Assembly (NCBI GenBank): GCA_022705425.1
Contig: JAKJEM010000001.1
Location: 260,515-324,514 of the forward strand
DNA: 64,000 nucleotides
Direction: 5' to 3'
DNA from: Planctomycetota bacterium
Lineage (GTDB): Bacteria > Planctomycetota > Brocadiia > CAIUPP01
The notes under the pieces were generated by a model, which saw nothing but the letters and a program-made list of their open reading frames with translations, was not told the DNA's origin and made no database searches. Shown here one piece after another: positions 54,895-64,000 of the stretch (the stretch's first letter is position 1; each line of letters begins with the position of its first letter). The position numbers and the translations under genes were made by a program.

Positions 54895-56019
54895 ATGACC
54901 TTTCACCTGTCGCTGCCGCGTCGCGTGCTCTTCGGCCCGGGTGTCTATGCCCGGCTGGGGGAGGTCGCCCGCACGATGGGCCGCCGTGCGCTGCTGGTCA
55001 CGGGCCGCTCCGCCCTGCGGCGCTCGGGGCGGTTGCAGCAGGCCGAGGACATGCTGCGCGAGCAGGGGGTGGATTACCTCCTCATCGAGGGCGTTGAGAA
55101 TGACCCCAGCCTGACGACCTGCGTCCATGCCATTCACACCGCCCGACGCGAACGGTGCGACTTCGTCCTCTCGATCGGCGGCGGGAGCGCGCTGGACGCC
55201 GGAAAGGCCGCCGCCGCCGTGGCGCCCCAGGCCGGCGACCTGGAGGCGTACTTTCACGGAGGGCGCAAGCTCGAAAGGAATCCCCTCCCGCACCTGGCCG
55301 TTCCCACCACCGCCGGCACCGGCAGCGAATCCACCCCGAACGCCGTCCTCACCGACACGGCGCGCGGCATCAAGAAGAGCCTGCGCGACGAGCGGATGGT
55401 CCCCGATGCGGCCCTGGCCGACCCGGAGCTGACGCTTTCCGCCCCGCCCGATGTCACGGCCCAGGCCGGGATGGACGCCCTGACGCAAGCCATCGAATGT
55501 TGCGTCTCGCGCGATGCCAATCCCTTTTCGGACGCGCTGGCTCTGCGCGCGATCGAACTCCTGGCGCGTCACCTGCCGGGGGCGGTGGCCGAGGGCTCGG
55601 ATCTGGCGCATCGCGAGCCGGTGGCCCTGGCCAGCCTCCTGACGGGCATCGCCTTCGGCAATGCCGGACTCGGGGCCGTCCACGGCTTCGCCAATCCGCT
55701 GGGCGCGGCCCTTCATGCCCCGCACGGGCTGATCTGCGCGGCGCTGCTGCCGCACGTCTGCGAGTTCAACCTGCCCGCCGCCGAGCGGAAGTTCGGCGAT
55801 GTGGCGCGCGCGCTCGGGCTGCACGCCGCCGGGGAGGTCCCCGCCGCTCTGGCCGCCCTGAACCACCGGCTCGGCATTCCGGCGCGCCTGGACGGATTCG
55901 GCCTGACCGAAGAGGCGCTGCCGGCCTTGGCGGCGGCCTCGCGCTCCGGCAGTATGCTCAAGAACCCGCGCTCGGCGACAGACGACGAACGGGTCGGCCT
56001 CCTGCGCAAGGTGCTTTGA
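54895..56019 (+). CDS. Iron-containing alcohol dehydrogenase
   Basis: IGGGSALDAGK, PTTAGTGSE, GMDALTQAIE, GAVHG, HG. Confidence 0.92.
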   Translation: MTFHLSLPRRVLFGPGVYARLGEVARTMGRRALLVTGRSALRRSGRLQQAEDMLREQGVDYLLIEGVENDPSLTTCVHAIHTARRERCDFVLSIGGGSALDAGKAAAAVAPQAGDLEAYFHGGRKLERNPLPHLAVPTTAGTGSESTPNAVLTDTARGIKKSLRDERMVPDAALADPELTLSAPPDVTAQAGMDALTQAIECCVSRDANPFSDALALRAIELLARHLPGAVAEGSDLAHREPVALASLLTGIAFGNAGLGAVHGFANPLGAALHAPHGLICAALLPHVCEFNLPAAERKFGDVARALGLHAAGEVPAALAALNHRLGIPARLDGFGLTEEALPALAAASRSGSMLKNPRSATDDERVGLLRKVL

Positions 56020-56038
56020 ACCTTTCCTCTTCCGGGAG

Positions 56039-56374
56039 ATGACGGTGCAGAAGATCAACGAGAAGGACAGCCCTTTCCGCAACGGCGATTGCGGCGTGAA
56101 GTATTTCATGCGGGGCCCCCGGCTCGACTGGGGCCTCATCCTCCTCAAGCCGGGCCAGGTCATGGGACCGCACGGCCACCGCCAGACGGAGGAGACCTTC
56201 CACTGCCTGGAAGGGACGCCCACGCTGGTAGTGGACGGGCGCGACGTGCCGATGGTCGCCGGCGACGTCGTGCGGCTGGACCCCCTCGAGAAGCACGACC
56301 TGCGCAACGACGGCGCAACGAACGCCCGCATCATCTTCATCAAGACGCCCTATCTCCCCGACGACCGCTTCTGA
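56039..56374 (+). CDS. Cupin domain protein
   Basis: PHGHRQTEETF..LEG...KHDLRN. Confidence 0.85.
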   Translation: MTVQKINEKDSPFRNGDCGVKYFMRGPRLDWGLILLKPGQVMGPHGHRQTEETFHCLEGTPTLVVDGRDVPMVAGDVVRLDPLEKHDLRNDGATNARIIFIKTPYLPDDRF

Positions 56375-56403
56375 GTCACGCCGCTTTCCTTCTGGAGAAG
56401 AAT

Positions 56404-57711
56404 ATGGCATCCCTTCGCTACGAGATTTCGCGCGACATTCCCGTCATTGTCGAGGCCGACGTCCTGGTCGTCGGCGGCGGTCCGGGCGGGCTCGGCGCCG
56501 CCGTCATGGCCGCCCGCGCCGGCGCGCGCACCGCGCTGGTCGAACGCTACGGGTTCCTCGGCGGCATGGCCGTTTCCGGCGAAGTCCACCCCTTCATGTC
56601 GAACCACGCTCGCCGTATCTCCCTCGACAAGCCCGTGTATATCGAATGGACCGAGCGCATCCGGCGCTACCTTCCCCCGTCCGCCCAGTGTCCGCCCGAT
56701 GCCGAAGCCGCCTCCGGGCCCTCGCGCCTGATCAGCAAGGACGCCGCGATGCTCGCGGCCGAGGACCTCTGCCTCGAAGCCGGGGTGCGGCTGCTCTATC
56801 ATCACACCCTGGTGGACGCCCTGCGCGCGGAGGGGAAGATCGCGGCGGCGGTCTTCCACTCGAAGTCCGGCTTCGTTGCCGCCCGCGCCGGCTGCTACGT
56901 GGACTGCACCGGCGACGGCGACTTGGCCGTGGCCGCCGGGTGCGCCTTCGATCAGGGGGGGGCTTCGGGACATTGCCAGCCGATGACCCTGTGCTTCAAG
57001 CTGAGCCACGTCGAGAAGTCCCGAATGCCCGACCGCGCGGCCATCAACGCCCTGTACGACGAGGCGCGCCGTCGCGGCGAGGTCCGCTGCCCGCGCGAGA
57101 ACGTTCTCCTCTTCGGCGCGTTCGACGACGACGTGGTCCACTTCAACACCACGCGCGTCATCCACAAGAGCGGCGTCAACGGGCAGGAGCTTTCCGAGGC
57201 GGAGATCGAGGGCCGGCGACAGTTGCGCGACTACCTGGCCTGGCTGCGCCGTTGCGTCCCCGGCTTCGAGCAGGCCCGCCTTCACTCGATCGCGCACCAC
57301 ATCGGCGTGCGCGAGACGCGTCGCATCCGCGGGCGCGCCTGCATCACGCGCGCAGACTTCGAGGTCCAGCGCAAGTTCCCCGATGCCATCGCCCGCGCCT
57401 CCTACCCCATAGACATCCACAACCCCGACGGCAGCGGCACGGAGATCGTCTGCGTTCCCGAAGGGGACTTTTACGAAATCCCCTACGGCTGCATCGTGGC
57501 CGCCGACGTGGAGAACCTGCTCGTCGGCGGACGTCCGATCTCGGCGGACCACGCCGTCCACAGCAGTATGCGTGTCATGCCGCCGGCCTGCTCCGTGGGC
57601 CAGGCGGCAGGCATGGCCGCCGCGCTGGCGGCGCTCTCCGGCAGGTCTCCCGCTGAACTGGACGGGCGCGAGGTCCGGCGTCGTCTGGTCGAGAAGGGCG
57701 CGAACCTGTGA
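56404..57711 (+). CDS. FAD-dependent oxidoreductase (FAD_oxidored family)
   Basis: DVLVVGGGPGG, DCTGDGD, GVRETRRI, YPIDIH, YEIPY, GR.IS. Confidence 0.9.
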   Translation: MASLRYEISRDIPVIVEADVLVVGGGPGGLGAAVMAARAGARTALVERYGFLGGMAVSGEVHPFMSNHARRISLDKPVYIEWTERIRRYLPPSAQCPPDAEAASGPSRLISKDAAMLAAEDLCLEAGVRLLYHHTLVDALRAEGKIAAAVFHSKSGFVAARAGCYVDCTGDGDLAVAAGCAFDQGGASGHCQPMTLCFKLSHVEKSRMPDRAAINALYDEARRRGEVRCPRENVLLFGAFDDDVVHFNTTRVIHKSGVNGQELSEAEIEGRRQLRDYLAWLRRCVPGFEQARLHSIAHHIGVRETRRIRGRACITRADFEVQRKFPDAIARASYPIDIHNPDGSGTEIVCVPEGDFYEIPYGCIVAADVENLLVGGRPISADHAVHSSMRVMPPACSVGQAAGMAAALAALSGRSPAELDGREVRRRLVEKGANL

Positions 57712-60885: not shown

Positions 60886-61890
60886 TCAGCGCGCCATGCG
60901 GGCGAGCTTCCGCGCCACCTGGCGCACGAAGTTACGCCCGAGGAGTTCGTAGCCGTCGCCGTTCGGATGGAGATGGTCGGGAAGGTAGCCGGTTTCGCCG
61001 GGCCCGAAGAGGTCGAGCCCGGAGACGTAGAAGATGCGGCGGTCGCCGGCGGCAACGAGGCGGGCGACGGCATCCTGCACCTGCTCGCGCATGAGGGTCA
61101 AAGTCATGCCCACGGCGTTCGGCGTCGTCTCGCGCGGCGGCGAGATGATCGGCGATACGACGGCCAGGGGGGTGCGCGGGTGCTTCTCGCGGATGATCTT
61201 GACCAGTCCGATGACCGCCGGCCGGAAGGAACGGCGGTTCAGGCTGCCGCTGCCCATCACGTTGATACCGAGCTTGAGGGAGATGAAATCGGCCGGCAGA
61301 TCGCGGATCATGCGCGCAACCATCGGGTCGAGATGGCACTGTCCGCCGTAGCCCAGGCAGGTCAGGTTCCAGTCCATGGCGCGGGCGATGGTGGCCGGCC
61401 AGGTGCGGGCGGGGCTGTGCGCCTCGCCGCAGTGGGTGATGGAGCTGCCGTAGGCGACCCATTTCGGGCGGCGGTCGGGGGCGGGGCGCGCCGTTGCCCC
61501 GGCGGGCAGCAGCAGCCGACGGACGACGGCGAGTTTCCGCTGCGGCAGCCAGAGTTCCACGACTTTGCGCCCGGCGGGAAGGTTCTCGAAGAGGACGTCC
61601 GTGGCGTTCTCGTCGAGGGCGGCGGTGGCCAGGAGCTTCGGGCCGAGCGTCAGGTCGAAGAGGCGCTTCTCATTGCGCGCGGCGCAACGCAGGCCGAGGG
61701 CGCGCGCCTCCGTCTCGAAGCGCAGCCGCACCCCGGCGGGCATCTCCGCGCGCGCGAGAAGGCCCTCGTCCGGCGACGGGAAGAGCCCGCGCTCCGACAC
61801 CGGCAGGCGCCAGGGCCTCAAACCACCCTCGGCGCGTTCAAAGGACACGGCTCCTGCGAACCACTTCGGCGTTACGGCAATGGCTTTCAT
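60886..61890 (-). CDS. SGNH/GDSL hydrolase with N-terminal jelly-roll (SsfX3-like)
   Basis: YGSSITHC, LGYGGQC.LDP, KLGIN, D.LHPN..GY; SD GGAGG. Confidence 0.9.
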   Translation of the reverse strand: MKAIAVTPKWFAGAVSFERAEGGLRPWRLPVSERGLFPSPDEGLLARAEMPAGVRLRFETEARALGLRCAARNEKRLFDLTLGPKLLATAALDENATDVLFENLPAGRKVVELWLPQRKLAVVRRLLLPAGATARPAPDRRPKWVAYGSSITHCGEAHSPARTWPATIARAMDWNLTCLGYGGQCHLDPMVARMIRDLPADFISLKLGINVMGSGSLNRRSFRPAVIGLVKIIREKHPRTPLAVVSPIISPPRETTPNAVGMTLTLMREQVQDAVARLVAAGDRRIFYVSGLDLFGPGETGYLPDHLHPNGDGYELLGRNFVRQVARKLARMAR

Positions 61891-61909
61891 GGCAGCCTCC
61901 GGTAAGGGG

Positions 61910-62049
61910 GACGACGGACGACGGACGGCAGACGACGGACGGCAGACGACGGACGACAGACGACGGACGACGGACGACAGACGACAGACGACGGACGACA
62001 GACGACAGACGGCAGACGACGGACGACGGACGGCAGACGACGGACGGCG
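61910..62049. repeat. Tandem heptamer array, 20 units of GACG(A/G)C(G/A)
   Basis: Units GACGACG, GACGGCA, GACGACA (final GACGGCG), exactly in phase over 140 bp. Confidence 0.95.
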
Positions 62050-62087
62050 GCTCCTGACTCGCGGCCATCGGCCATCAGGCCCAAGGG

Positions 62088-62174: not shown

Positions 62175-62203
62175 TTGACAGTATCGCCGTGACGCACTAT
62201 CTT
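62175..62203 (+). promoter_or_regulatory. sigma70-like promoter for STAS-acs
   Basis: TTGACA-17-TATCTT. Confidence 0.7.
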
Positions 62204-62339
62204 CTCCGCCGTCGTTGTTCTTCGGATTGTGGGGCGGCTTCCGCGCGCAGGCCGCCAAGGTCAAGGAGTGCGTAGCGCCCGGGGGGTGTCTCGATGATGT
62301 CCCACGCCAACTCCGACACAGGCATCGAGGAGGCCGCCA

Positions 62340-64000
62340 ATGGAAACCCGGTTCGACGCCGAGAGGGGGACGCTGACCTGTTCGTTCGAGGGTTCGATCC
62401 GCAGCGACGAATGCCCGGCGATCCATGCGGAGGTACTGGCGAAACTGGAGGCACTCGGGGCGCGTGCAGGGAGCGCGCCGCCCGATGGGCTCAAGGTCGT
62501 CTTCGACCTCGGCAGCGTGGAGTATGTCTCATCGGCCTTTCTCAGTGTGCTGCTGATGACGGCGCGACGGGTGAAGAAGGGCAATCTGGCGATCTCCAAC
62601 GCGAACGCGTTCGTTCACGACATTCTGACGACGGTCGGGCTTGATCGTCTGGCCCGGATCACCTCGTTGAAACGTGACGCGGCGTCCTTTCCGCCCCCGC
62701 CGGCCTTCGCGGCGACGGCGCGATTGTCTTCGGCGGCGGAACGGGCGCGGTTGCACGCCGAGTCGCTGGCCGATCCCGAGGGGTTCTGGGGGAGAATGGC
62801 GGGGAAACATCTGGCGTGGTTCAAACCCTGGGAGCGGGTTCTCGACTGGCAACCGCCCAATGCCAAGTGGTTCGTGGGGGGGCGACTGAATGCCTGCTAC
62901 AACTGCCTTGACCGGCACCTGGGCACCCCGACGGAGCACAAGGCGGCCCTCATCTGGGAGGGGGAGATGGAAGGCCGCCCGGGGCAGGAGCGGGTGCTGA
63001 CCTATCGAGAGCTCTTCACGGAGGTGTGCCGGTTCGCGAATGCGCTGAAGCGGCTGGGGGTGGGCAAGGGCGACCGCGTCTTGATCTACATGCCGATGAC
63101 CCCCGAAGCCTGTGTGGCGATGCTCGCCTGCGCACGGATCGGGGCGATTCATTCCGTGGTGTTCGGCGGATTCAGCGCGCAAGCCGTGGCTGAACGGGTT
63201 CAGGACTGCGGCGCAAAGGCCGTTGTGACGGCCGATGGCGGCCGGCGGCGCGGAGAGATCGTGCCGTTGAAGGCGAACGTGGACGCGGCCATGACGCTGC
63301 GCGACGATGCGGGACGGATGAGTTGCGCCACGGTGCGCCACGTGGTGGTGCTTCGGCAGGTCGGGGTCGAGACGCCGATGACGGCGGGCCGGGACGTCTG
63401 GTGGCACGAGATCGTCGCGGGTGTCTCGGCGGACTGCCCGCCCGAGGTCCTGGACAGCGAGGACGTGCTGTTTATCCTCTACACCAGCGGCTCGACGGGC
63501 AAACCCAAGGGGGTCTTCCACACGACGGCGGGCTATCTGCTCGGTGTCAAGCTGACGCACGAACACATCTTCGACATTCGCGACAGCGACGTCTACTGGT
63601 GTACGGCCGACATCGGATGGATCACCGGCCACAGTTACGTGGTCTACGGCCCTTTGGCCAACGGCGCGACGGTGGTTATCTACGAGGGCGCGCCGAACTA
63701 CCCGAGCCCGGACCGGTTCTGGCGCATCGTCGCCAAGCGGCGCGTCACGATCCTTTACACCGCGCCGACGGCCATCCGGGCTTTCATGAAGTGGGGAGAC
63801 GAATGGCCGGCACGGCATGACCTTTCCTCGTTGCGGCTGCTCGGAACGGTCGGCGAGCCGATCAACCCGGAGGCGTGGCTCTGGTATCACCGCGTGATCG
63901 GCGGGGGGCGGTGCCCGATCGTGGATACGTGGTGGCAGACGGAGACCGGCGCCATCATGATCGCGCCCCTGCCCGGCGCCACGGCGACGAAGCCGGGATC
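62340..64000 (+). CDS. acs: STAS domain-acetyl-CoA synthetase fusion (3'-partial)
   Basis: Hand-translated with no stop from ATG 62340 (SD GGAGG) to the window end: STAS ([16 protein letters not shown]..., aa 1-107), then [57 protein letters not shown]. Confidence 0.92.

What the first reader, a model, noticed from the sequence alone, without database searches (positions are those of the whole stretch)
62340..64000. Acetyl-CoA synthetase with an in-frame N-terminal STAS (anti-anti-sigma-type) domain
Seen: one uninterrupted frame from ATG 62340 (SD GGAGG). aa 1-107 are a STAS domain (L.C.FEGSI..., [25 protein letters not shown]...GLD.L..I), joined without a linker to the Acs N-terminus (FPPP at aa 117). 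There is no SD-backed internal start. Ser65 aligns with the phospho-acceptor of SpoIIAA/RsbV (YMDS), but the following Gly is replaced by Phe. The ORF track omits this gene. Established: Acs is normally regulated by Lys acetylation, STAS domains act in partner-switching, and the STAS of a bacterial SLC26 transporter binds acyl carrier protein. Inference: an Acs regulated by phosphorylation or partner switching, or a sensor coupling acetate/acetyl-CoA flux to a sigma-factor cascade. I am not aware of a characterised example.
Basis: partly seen in the sequence, partly recalled or inferred. Interest (0 to 1): 0.78.

Follow-up and report, generated by a model that had tools for sequence, protein, structure and literature searches.

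The report
Acetyl-CoA synthetase with fused STAS domain
The gene is a real, conserved fusion of a small STAS signalling domain to the acetate-activating enzyme acetyl-CoA synthetase, and its free-standing relatives sit beside another acetyl-CoA enzyme and often beside a kinase/phosphatase pair, so this central enzyme may be controlled by a phosphorylation switch that has not been described for it.

Summary
ATG 62340 (AGGAGG 6 nt upstream) opens one frame that runs off the window. The full protein is 765 aa: STAS (aa 1-110), a 6-residue linker, then a complete acetate--CoA ligase that passes the NCBIfam equivalog cut-off.

The fusion is not an assembly artefact. At least 64 protein clusters of 747-795 aa share it, and they form one clade among Acs sequences. 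The records are named Planctomycetota, Verrucomicrobiota, Kiritimatiellae and Myxococcales.

The domain folds as an anti-sigma-antagonist STAS. Its invariant Ser65 aligns with SpoIIAA Ser58.

New here: the domain belongs to a distinct STAS subfamily (motif S-x-F-x-R). Free-standing members lie next to a CoA-acylating acetaldehyde dehydrogenase gene in 71 of 73 metagenomic loci. In 17 of 80 loci they also lie beside an RsbW-like kinase, several with a PP2C phosphatase. Some operons read ALDH-STAS-[STAS-Acs].

No kinase or phosphatase gene lies in the window or beside any fusion, so phospho-control of Acs is inferred, not shown.

The closest precedent is Anabaena All4160, a STAS-glycosyltransferase. 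I found no paper on STAS-Acs.

Verdict: a new variant of a known kind, moderately to highly interesting.

The parts
62175..62203 (+). Sigma-70-like promoter candidate (TTGACA, 17 nt, TATCTT), about 135 nt upstream of the ATG
   Evidence: 10 of 12 hexamer positions match. One site was found against a mean of 0.0 in shuffles. This is a consensus match only; function was not tested.
62328..62333 (+). Shine-Dalgarno AGGAGG, 6 nt before the start codon
   Evidence: Read directly from the sequence.
62340..64000 (+). STAS-Acs fusion gene, first 553 of 765 codons. The gene continues about 637 nt past the window end.
   Evidence: Searches show the open frame and the upstream stop. P0001 is the full 765-aa product and is 100% identical over the window part. 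It was recovered on two other records, L005 and L006. The full-length protein scores 974.7 bits against TIGR02188 (cut-off 724.95).
62340..62669 (+). STAS domain, aa 1-110 (strand-strand-helix-strand-helix-strand-helix-strand)
   Evidence: Pfam STAS_2 and STAS are both above their gathering scores. The AF2 model of the domain alone has pLDDT 94.6. The best PDB fold matches are anti-sigma-factor antagonists 4hyl, SpoIIAA 1th8_B and RsbV 6m36, with TM 0.72-0.74 normalised to the query. The domain scores 91.8 bits against an HMM built from the free-standing ALDH-linked STAS subfamily, whereas classical STAS genes in neighbouring loci score about 40-46 bits.
62532..62534 (+). Ser65 codon (TCG), the candidate phospho-acceptor, within the family motif Y-x-S-S-x-F-L-R
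   Evidence: Ser65 is invariant in 64 fusions. The equivalent Ser is invariant in 71 free-standing relatives. It aligns with SpoIIAA Ser58. Phe67 is invariant. Position 69 is Arg in at least 90% of fusions but Ser in this protein and in its closest relative P0002.
62670..62687 (+). Short linker, aa 111-116 (KRDAAS), with no stop and no SD-backed internal start
   Evidence: The linker is 6 to about 14 residues across the family. Model confidence is lower here, with pLDDT block means of 61-75.
62688..64000 (+). AMP-forming acetyl-CoA synthetase portion, from aa 117 (FPPPP). ACAS_N is at 62748-62906 and AMP-binding at 62937-63977. The C-terminal domain with the catalytic/acetylatable Lys727 (PKTRSGK) lies beyond the window.
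   Evidence: It is 50-51% identical to Salmonella Acs structures 1pg4 and 5jrh in the fold search. K727 and the WWQTETG motif are invariant in the family.

Best explanation
Shown: the gene encodes a single 765-aa protein. A STAS domain of the anti-sigma-factor-antagonist type is fused, through a 6-residue linker, to the N-terminus of a complete, apparently acetate-specific AMP-forming acetyl-CoA synthetase. The fusion arose once and is conserved.

Shown: its STAS domain belongs to a distinct subfamily (motif FD...Y-x-S-S-x-F-x-R). Free-standing members of that subfamily are almost always encoded 9-15 nt downstream of a CoA-acylating acetaldehyde dehydrogenase gene. In a fraction of loci an RsbW-type serine kinase also lies beside them, and in several of those a SpoIIE/PP2C phosphatase.

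Inferred mechanism: the fused STAS domain is the receiver of a partner-switching-like phospho-switch. An RsbW-type kinase encoded elsewhere in the genome phosphorylates Ser65 and a PP2C phosphatase removes the phosphate. The phosphorylation state, or the binding of the kinase or of a free STAS paralogue, changes how the STAS domain sits on or associates with the Acs body, and so turns acetate activation up or down.

Inferred role: together with the ALDH-linked paralogue, this would place the acetate / acetyl-CoA / acetaldehyde(-ethanol) node under one post-translational signal. It would add to or replace the usual Lys acetylation of Acs.
For: Fusion is real and under selection:
- At least 64 clusters of 747-795 aa cover 98-100% of the query (three 747-aa clusters 91-95%). 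They come from different assemblies.
- Several STAS positions are invariant: F55, S65, F67 and F91 in the domain alignment; F55, S65 and F67 across all 64 full-length proteins.
- All 64 fusions fall on one side of a single split in an NJ tree of Acs cores.

STAS identity.

Acs identity: the protein passes the TIGR02188 equivalog cut-off, and the catalytic Lys and WWQTETG are invariant.

Subfamily link: an exhaustive profile search finds about 100-110-aa free-standing proteins as the best non-fragment hits, and they carry the same S-x-F-x-R motif. The fused clade is sister to the free-standing clade, and both sit apart from classical STAS.

Context of free-standing members:
- ALDH lies directly upstream in 68 of 73 loci, plus 2 just downstream and 1 at 323 nt.
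- The ALDH is AdhE-N-terminal-like, i.e. acetylating.
- RsbW-like HATPase_c_2 occurs in 17 of 80 loci; several also carry a SpoIIE/PP2C phosphatase, as a separate HAMP-SpoIIE gene or fused with the kinase domain.

Bridging operons: ALDH-STAS-[STAS-Acs] in L012 and L015; ALDH-[STAS-Acs]-STAS-STAS in L101; STAS-[STAS-Acs] in L010.

Precedent: All4160, an N-terminal STAS fused to a glycosyltransferase, is controlled by kinase Alr3423 and PP2C phosphatase HenR (PMC13555669).
Against: - No kinase, PP2C phosphatase, ALDH or free STAS gene lies in the 64-kb window. No kinase or phosphatase lies within 7-10 kb of any of the 12 distinct fusion genes examined.
- The Gly two residues after the Ser, typical of phosphorylatable SpoIIAA/RsbV, is Phe.
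- The TIGR00377 anti-sigma-antagonist model scores only 31.6 bits against a cut-off of 53.45.
- A Ser at the N-cap of helix 2 could be conserved for structural reasons.
- Only 4 conservative residue differences separate fusion from non-fusion Acs cores, so there is no sign of a co-evolved docking surface.
- Only about a fifth of the free-standing loci show a kinase nearby.
- The nearly family-wide Arg69 is Ser in this particular protein.
- I could not inspect domain contacts in the full-length model, because neither coordinates nor PAE are returned.
Confidence: 0.48

Rival explanations
1. The STAS domain is an assembly or scaffolding module and is not phosphorylated. It mediates stable protein-protein contacts, either STAS-STAS or STAS-ALDH. 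This would tether Acs to the acylating acetaldehyde dehydrogenase or to free STAS paralogues and form a complex around acetyl-CoA. The conserved Ser/Phe/Arg would be interface or structural residues.
For: ALDH and STAS genes are spaced 9-15 nt apart, or 6 nt for ALDH-[STAS-Acs] in L101, which fits translational coupling of complex subunits. The pair is near-obligate, 71 of 73 loci, while kinases are seen in only 17 of 80. Extra STAS-only genes flank fusions with no kinase in L010, L012, L015, L101 and L001.
Against: STAS domains of this fold class are best known as kinase/phosphatase substrates. When other signalling genes are present beside the free-standing members, they are exactly RsbW-type kinases and PP2C phosphatases. 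The window fusion and six of the other eleven fusion contexts have neither an ALDH nor a STAS gene nearby. No conserved fusion-specific surface appears on the Acs core.
Confidence: 0.25
2. Acs acts as a sensor feeding a transcriptional partner-switching cascade. The fused STAS binds and sequesters an anti-sigma-type kinase, depending on the catalytic or ligand state of Acs. Acetate/acetyl-CoA/ATP status would then be relayed to a sigma factor or another output.
For: The fold matches SpoIIAA/RsbV in complex with their anti-sigma kinases. The related free-standing genes sit with RsbW-like proteins.
Against: No sigma-factor gene is consistently linked to either the fused or the free-standing form. 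The only sigma gene seen, an ECF sigma with FecR in L011, belongs to a TonB/SusD unit. The ALDH linkage points to enzymes, not transcription, as the partners.
Confidence: 0.12
3. The STAS domain is a small-molecule or ACP-binding regulatory domain. It would bind a nucleotide, CoA thioester, fatty acid or acyl carrier protein, as proposed for some SulP STAS domains, and give allosteric feedback on Acs.
For: Both enzymes linked to this STAS subfamily handle CoA and acetyl-CoA. The YchM STAS-ACP structure 3ny7 is a detectable fold match (rank 48).
Against: SulP-type STAS structures match clearly worse (TM 0.54-0.64) than anti-sigma antagonists (0.72-0.77). There is no sequence evidence of a ligand site. 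The kinase/phosphatase linkage of relatives is unexplained by this model.
Confidence: 0.1
4. The fusion is an artefact: two adjacent genes (STAS and acs) joined by a sequencing or assembly error, or the Acs is translated from an internal start so that the STAS part is not attached in vivo.
For: One gene caller did start the Kiritimatiellae orthologue internally, at 667 aa (L012). Split arrangements with a free STAS directly upstream of acs do exist.
Against: The identical architecture, with no stop, occurs in at least 64 clusters from independent assemblies and on three records of this organism. There is no Met and no SD-backed start between aa 73 and 152. In L012 the open frame in fact includes a full STAS domain upstream of the called start. 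The STAS part shows protein-level purifying selection.
Confidence: 0.03

Closest known systems
All4160 of Anabaena sp. PCC 7120 (N-terminal STAS domain fused to a glycosyltransferase; kinase Alr3423, PP2C phosphatase HenR; PMC13555669)
   Same: Both have an N-terminal STAS domain fused directly to an enzyme, so a partner-switching-like module would act on enzyme activity rather than on a sigma factor. In both cases the kinase and phosphatase genes are not necessarily adjacent.
   Different: The enzyme differs: a central-metabolic adenylate-forming CoA ligase here, a sugar transferase there. The lineages differ: Planctomycetota, Verrucomicrobiota and Kiritimatiellae records and other uncultured anaerobes here, cyanobacteria there. 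The STAS subfamily differs (S-x-F-x-R motif). No kinase or phosphatase has been identified for the Acs fusion, and phosphorylation is untested.
SpoIIAA / RsbV anti-sigma-factor antagonists (Bacillus partner switching)
   Same: They share the fold (TM 0.72-0.74), a Ser aligned with the phospho-acceptor Ser58 and the G-x-hydrophobic-D-type strand2-helix1 segment. Free-standing relatives are encoded with RsbW-type kinases and SpoIIE-type phosphatases.
   Different: The domain is fused to an enzyme. The Gly of DSSG is Phe. It scores below the TIGR00377 cut-off. No sigma or anti-sigma partner is evident.
Canonical bacterial Acs regulated by Lys acetylation (Salmonella Acs Lys609 with Pat/CobB; Bacillus AcsA with AcuA/AcuC) - from established knowledge
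   Same: It has the same catalytic core, 50-51% identical to Salmonella Acs. The acetylatable catalytic Lys sits in PKTRSGK (K727), so acetylation control remains possible.
   Different: It has an extra 116-residue N-terminal segment (STAS domain plus linker). No acetyltransferase or deacetylase was seen nearby.
STAS proteins that regulate non-sigma outputs (e.g. SiaC controlling the diguanylate cyclase SiaD; SypA/SypE; reviewed in PMC8256260)
   Same: A STAS protein controlled by phosphorylation acts on an enzyme or process rather than on transcription. SiaC (6kkp) is a weak fold match (rank 47).
   Different: Those STAS proteins are free-standing and bind their targets non-covalently. Here the target is covalently attached.
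SulP/SLC26 transporter STAS domains (YchM/DauA STAS-ACP complex, 3ny7)
   Same: The STAS fold is fused to a larger protein with a link to carboxylate or acyl metabolism.
   Different: Those domains are C-terminal and attached to a membrane transporter. The fold match is weaker, and no transmembrane domain is present here.

Membership tests
AMP-forming acetyl-CoA synthetase (acetate--CoA ligase, TIGR02188 / PRK00174) | Whole-protein score above the curated equivalog cut-off | tested here: met
   Full-length P0001 scores 974.7 bits against TIGR02188 (cut-off 724.95) and 1011.7 against PRK00174 (cut-off 657). The propionate--CoA ligase models score below their cut-offs.
AMP-forming acetyl-CoA synthetase (acetate--CoA ligase, TIGR02188 / PRK00174) | Domain set ACAS_N + AMP-binding + AMP-binding_C | tested here: met
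   (PF16177, PF00501, PF13193).
AMP-forming acetyl-CoA synthetase (acetate--CoA ligase, TIGR02188 / PRK00174) | Catalytic/acetylatable Lys in the PKTRSGK motif and Trp in the acetate pocket (WWQTETG) | tested here: met
   K727 and W531/W532 are invariant in 64 family members. Their equivalence to Salmonella K609 and W414 comes from my own knowledge of the family, not from an alignment made here.
AMP-forming acetyl-CoA synthetase (acetate--CoA ligase, TIGR02188 / PRK00174) | Acetate-dependent acetyl-CoA formation | not testable with these tools
   Needs an enzyme assay.
STAS domain (Pfam PF01740 / PF13466) | Profile score above the gathering cut-off | tested here: met
   STAS_2 scores 34.9 (cut-off 29.2) and STAS 23.8 (cut-off 22.6) on the window protein. 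Of 29 family members, 28 match PF01740 and 25 match PF13466 at E <= 0.01.
STAS domain (Pfam PF01740 / PF13466) | SpoIIAA-like alpha/beta fold | tested here: met
   The AF2 model has pLDDT 94.6. All top 17 Foldseek PDB hits at E <= 1e-3 are anti-sigma antagonists.
Phosphorylatable anti-sigma-factor antagonist (SpoIIAA/RsbV type, TIGR00377) | Ser/Thr at the position of SpoIIAA Ser58 | tested here: met
   Ser65 aligns with Ser58. It is invariant in the fused and free-standing subfamily.
Phosphorylatable anti-sigma-factor antagonist (SpoIIAA/RsbV type, TIGR00377) | Curated family score and the D-S-S-G loop (Gly at +2) | tested here: not met
   TIGR00377 scores 31.6 bits against a cut-off of 53.45. 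Position +2 is an invariant Phe.
Phosphorylatable anti-sigma-factor antagonist (SpoIIAA/RsbV type, TIGR00377) | Cognate RsbW/SpoIIAB-type kinase and PP2C phosphatase encoded with it | tested here: not met
   Neither is present in the window or in the flanks of 12 fusion loci. RsbW-like kinase genes are present beside free-standing subfamily members in 17 of 80 loci, several with a PP2C phosphatase. Whole genomes could not be searched.
Phosphorylatable anti-sigma-factor antagonist (SpoIIAA/RsbV type, TIGR00377) | Reversible phosphorylation and binding to an anti-sigma kinase | not testable with these tools
   Needs biochemistry.
STAS-fused enzymes under partner-switching-like control (All4160 type) | N-terminal STAS domain in one polypeptide with a catalytic domain | tested here: met
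STAS-fused enzymes under partner-switching-like control (All4160 type) | [quoted passage not shown] | not testable with these tools
   This is inferred only. The precedent is described in PMC13555669.
SulP/SLC26 transporter STAS | C-terminal STAS domain attached to a SulP membrane domain | tested here: not met
   There is no transporter domain and the STAS is N-terminal. SulP STAS structures are weaker fold matches.

The most novel reading that the evidence does not exclude
This STAS subfamily may be a dedicated post-translational control module for the acetyl-CoA node of anaerobic bacteria. Its free-standing form would partner with the CoA-acylating acetaldehyde dehydrogenase and its fused form with Acs. 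An RsbW-type kinase and a PP2C phosphatase, receiving signals through dCache/HAMP or receiver domains, would set the phosphorylation state of the conserved Ser. That state would switch carbon between the acetate and the acetaldehyde/ethanol branches. This would be partner switching acting on central metabolic enzymes instead of sigma factors, and a second, acetylation-independent way to regulate Acs.
Probability: 0.3. Interest if true: 0.8.

Novelty: new variant of a known kind. Interest (0 to 1): 0.62.

Why it matters
Acs is a textbook enzyme, and its known post-translational control is acetylation of one lysine. A conserved, single-origin Acs lineage with a built-in STAS domain suggests a second control mode that had gone unnoticed, because annotation pipelines name these proteins simply 'acetate--CoA ligase'.

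The same STAS subfamily is almost always paired with an acetylating acetaldehyde dehydrogenase, and it is sometimes flanked by a sensor-linked kinase/phosphatase pair. This points to a signalling module dedicated to the acetate / acetyl-CoA / acetaldehyde branch point in poorly studied anaerobes (records named Planctomycetota, Verrucomicrobiota, Kiritimatiellae and others).

The finding gives partner-switching research a new enzyme output class, and the hypothesis can be tested with recombinant proteins. It is also a caution for metabolic models of these organisms.

Tried and rejected
1. A word-index protein search with the STAS region alone found nothing. The exhaustive profile search was needed.
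2. The first NJ tree was midpoint-rooted and seemed to split the fusions. An unrooted split analysis showed they are one group.
A 9-sequence alignment, A4, worked.
4. One literature query failed on syntax.
5. A search for residues that distinguish fusion from non-fusion Acs cores, as a proxy for a docking surface, gave only four conservative changes: I/V428, A/C620, S/A641, E/D713. This was uninformative.
6. The full-length AF2 model (pLDDT 83.6, pTM 0.77) could not be used to judge STAS-Acs contacts, because neither coordinates nor PAE are returned.
7. The two-gene/frameshift artefact was considered and rejected.
8. SulP-type/ACP-binding STAS was considered and ranked low.
9. Searching whole genomes of fusion carriers for kinases was not possible.
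10. The 50%-identity representative library hides full-length fusions. None appears among the 150 best hits, probably because they cluster with ordinary Acs (an inference), so family size could not be counted there. The lower bound is 64 clusters at 90% identity.
Full report
**1. The observation**

The + strand frame that starts at ATG 62340 is open to the end of the window, 553 codons. An in-frame stop lies 14 codons upstream, with no alternative start codon between it and the ATG. AGGAGG sits at 62328-62333. A promoter-like TTGACA-17-TATCTT lies at 62175-62203.

Pfam places STAS_2 (aa 18-102) and STAS (aa 52-107) above their gathering scores, followed by ACAS_N (137-189) and AMP-binding (200-546). 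The NCBIfam acetate--CoA ligase profile begins at aa 110, at profile position 5. The STAS domain is therefore attached only a few residues before the normal Acs N-terminus (FPPPP at 117-121).

The ORF lister omits the gene only because the ORF runs off the window end.

**2. It is a real, conserved fusion**

A search with the 553 residues returned the organism's own full-length product (P0001, 765 aa) and a 78%-identical 765-aa relative. It also returned about 60 further 90%-identity clusters of 747-795 aa that cover nearly all of the query. Many of these carry precomputed STAS hits. Ordinary 667-670-aa Acs proteins cover only 81%.

Using a conserved Acs motif as an anchor, 65 of the 120 best hits have a 150-200-residue N-terminal segment. 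One is truncated, and 64 were aligned. In an NJ tree of the Acs cores all 64 fall on one side of a single split, together with one 717-aa protein that probably has a mis-called start. This indicates a single origin.

P0001 is encoded on two further records of the same organism, a JGI metagenome contig and a contig of NCBI assembly GCA_029549465.1. A sequencing artefact is therefore excluded for practical purposes.

Records carrying fusions are named Planctomycetota, Verrucomicrobiota, Kiritimatiellae and Myxococcales.

**3. The two halves**

*Acs half.* Full-length P0001 passes the TIGR02188 equivalog cut-off (974.7 against 724.95), whereas the propionate--CoA ligase models do not pass theirs. 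The catalytic/acetylatable Lys (K727 in PKTRSGK) and the WWQTETG motif are invariant. The predicted structure matches Salmonella and fungal Acs structures at 47-51% identity.

*STAS half.*
- A profile of 29 family STAS regions hits SpoIIAA, TM1442 and other anti-sigma antagonists in the PDB.
- The domain alone models at pLDDT 94.6 with strand-strand-helix-strand-helix-strand-helix-strand topology.
- Its best fold matches are anti-sigma antagonists (4hyl, SpoIIAA 1th8_B, RsbV 6m36; TM 0.72-0.74). SulP STAS domains and the YchM-ACP complex rank lower.
- Invariant or nearly invariant STAS positions are F16, G18, F55, D56, S65, F67, R69, F91, G100 and I107.
- Ser65 aligns with the SpoIIAA phospho-acceptor Ser58.
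- The Gly two residues later is an invariant Phe.
- Arg69 is nearly universal, but it is Ser in this protein and in its closest relative.

**4. The STAS domain belongs to a distinct subfamily with a striking gene linkage**

An exhaustive profile search of 1.84 billion representatives gave 4604 hits at E <= 1e-3 and 366 at E <= 1e-10. After a few fragments of fusions, the best hits are free-standing proteins of about 100-120 aa with the same FD...Y-x-[SA]-S-x-F-x-R-[IV]-C motif.

The window's STAS scores 91.8 bits against an HMM of these free-standing proteins. Classical STAS genes found in neighbouring loci score about 40-46 bits. In a domain tree the fused clade is sister to the free-standing clade, and both are separate from classical STAS.

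Gene neighbourhoods of four free-standing members all showed the STAS gene 9-15 nt downstream of a 476-492-aa aldehyde dehydrogenase. That enzyme is 53-55% identical to the N-terminal half of an AdhE in the same locus. Its best NCBIfam matches are the acetylating acetaldehyde dehydrogenase families, although below their cut-offs.

A metagenome scan gave 80 further loci:
- Of the 73 loci with upstream sequence, 68 have this ALDH ending directly upstream of the STAS gene. Two more have it 20-25 nt downstream, and one has it 323 nt upstream.
- Seventeen of the 80 also carry an RsbW-like HATPase_c_2 domain. It is either a separate kinase gene close to the STAS gene, followed in several loci by a HAMP-SpoIIE phosphatase gene, or part of a fused dCache-HAMP-SpoIIE-HATPase_c_2 protein upstream of the ALDH. 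Pfam confirmed the domains in three loci.

The Gly-to-Phe change is therefore shared by members that sit inside partner-switching gene sets.

**5. Bridging arrangements**

Twelve distinct fusion neighbourhoods were examined:
- L012 (Kiritimatiellae) and L015: ALDH - free STAS - [STAS-Acs]. In L012 the gene caller started the Acs internally, but the open frame contains the full STAS domain.
- L101: ALDH - [STAS-Acs] - subfamily STAS - classical STAS, with a 6-nt ALDH-fusion gap.
- L010: subfamily STAS - [STAS-Acs].
- L001: [STAS-Acs] - classical STAS.
- The window, L007, L008, L009, L011 and L100 show the fusion without these partners. L004, on a short 5.9-kb contig, showed no second STAS or ALDH hit.

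None of the 12 has an RsbW-like kinase or a related PP2C phosphatase within 7-10 kb, and neither does the 64-kb window.

The window does carry Fe-ADH, Cupin_2 and FAD_oxidored genes about 6 kb upstream, at 54895-57711. All three families also appear around the L101 fusion.

**6. Mechanism**

*Shown:* one polypeptide; an anti-sigma-antagonist-type STAS domain; a bona fide Acs; a single origin; and membership of a STAS subfamily tied to acetyl-CoA-forming enzymes and, in part, to kinase/phosphatase pairs.

*Inferred (confidence about 0.5):* the fused STAS is the input of a partner-switching-like phospho-switch on Ser65 that modulates Acs. This parallels All4160 of Anabaena, an N-terminal STAS-glycosyltransferase regulated by kinase Alr3423 and PP2C phosphatase HenR (PMC13555669).

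*Main rival (about 0.25):* the STAS is a non-phosphorylated assembly module that tethers Acs, ALDH and free STAS proteins. The tight ALDH-STAS spacing and the absence of kinases next to fusions favour this reading.

*Weaker rivals:* a relay to a sigma cascade (no linked sigma genes), a ligand/ACP sensor, and an artefact.

A comparison of fusion and non-fusion Acs cores found only four conservative differences. That gives no evidence for a co-evolved docking surface. Domain contacts in the model could not be inspected.

**7. Comparison with what is known, and novelty**

No paper in the searchable library combines 'STAS domain' with acetyl-CoA synthetase. The two papers that combine 'anti-sigma factor antagonist' with acetyl-CoA synthetase are unrelated expression and proteome studies by title and abstract. 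None of the four papers that combine 'STAS domain' with 'aldehyde dehydrogenase' concerns a bacterial acylating ALDH. Further searches on partner-switching combined with acetaldehyde dehydrogenase, acetyl-CoA or RsbW surfaced nothing relevant.

A review of STAS-only proteins names All4160 as an example of a STAS fusion outside the SulP family (PMC8256260). Public annotation calls these proteins simply 'acetate--CoA ligase'.

The protein is a full member of the Acs family and of the STAS superfamily. It fails the curated anti-sigma-antagonist family score and lacks the DSSG Gly. It should therefore be described as working like, rather than being, an RsbV/SpoIIAA-type antagonist.

I rate it a new variant of a known kind (a STAS-fused enzyme), with interest 0.62. 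The ALDH-STAS linkage found along the way is at least as noteworthy as the fusion itself.

Noticed in passing
window 61909-62050: A 7-bp tandem repeat, GGACGAC x 20.3 with 84% matches. It lies in the divergent intergenic region between the GDSL-lipase gene (60886-61890, minus strand, ATG about 20 nt away) and the STAS-Acs promoter region. The copy number is the same on two other records of this organism (L005, L006).
   Followed up: partly
L020-L099 (metagenome loci), e.g. L090 885-4874, L086 4473-8598, L020 2195-6306: A conserved gene pair: a CoA-acylating acetaldehyde dehydrogenase followed within a few nt by a free-standing STAS gene of about 105 aa (71 of 73 loci). In 17 of 80 loci an RsbW-like HATPase_c_2 kinase gene (followed in several by a HAMP-SpoIIE phosphatase gene), or a fused dCache-HAMP-SpoIIE-HATPase_c_2 protein, lies beside it. 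I found no description of this in the literature searched.
   Followed up: yes
window 54895-57711 (+); compare L101 366-2051 and 14530-15989: Fe-ADH, Cupin_2 and FAD_oxidored genes lie about 6 kb upstream of the fusion in the window. The same three families flank the ALDH-[STAS-Acs] operon in L101. This suggests a recurring alcohol/aldehyde/acetate gene neighbourhood.
   Followed up: partly
L012 8290-10674 (Kiritimatiellae JAQUMN010000027.1): The deposited gene call starts this Acs internally (667 aa), although the open frame encodes a full N-terminal STAS domain. Fusions of this family are probably under-counted in annotations.
   Followed up: partly
L011 10628-12874; L017-L019 1-1023: Large proteins with STAS + TCAD9 + APH (phosphotransferase-like) domains occur near both a fusion locus and an ALDH-STAS locus. 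In L017 they sit beside a 497-aa HATPase_c_2 protein, a classical STAS gene, an RsbW-like kinase and a receiver-SpoIIE phosphatase.
   Followed up: no
window 62544-62546 (codon 69): The Arg that is nearly invariant in the subfamily motif S-x-F-x-R is Ser in this protein and in its 78%-identical relative P0002. The consequence is unknown.
   Followed up: no
L012 13184-15664: A membrane H+-pyrophosphatase gene lies a few kb downstream of the ALDH-STAS-[STAS-Acs] operon. This would matter if Acs runs in the ATP-forming, PPi-consuming direction in these anaerobes. That idea is speculative and was not tested.
   Followed up: no
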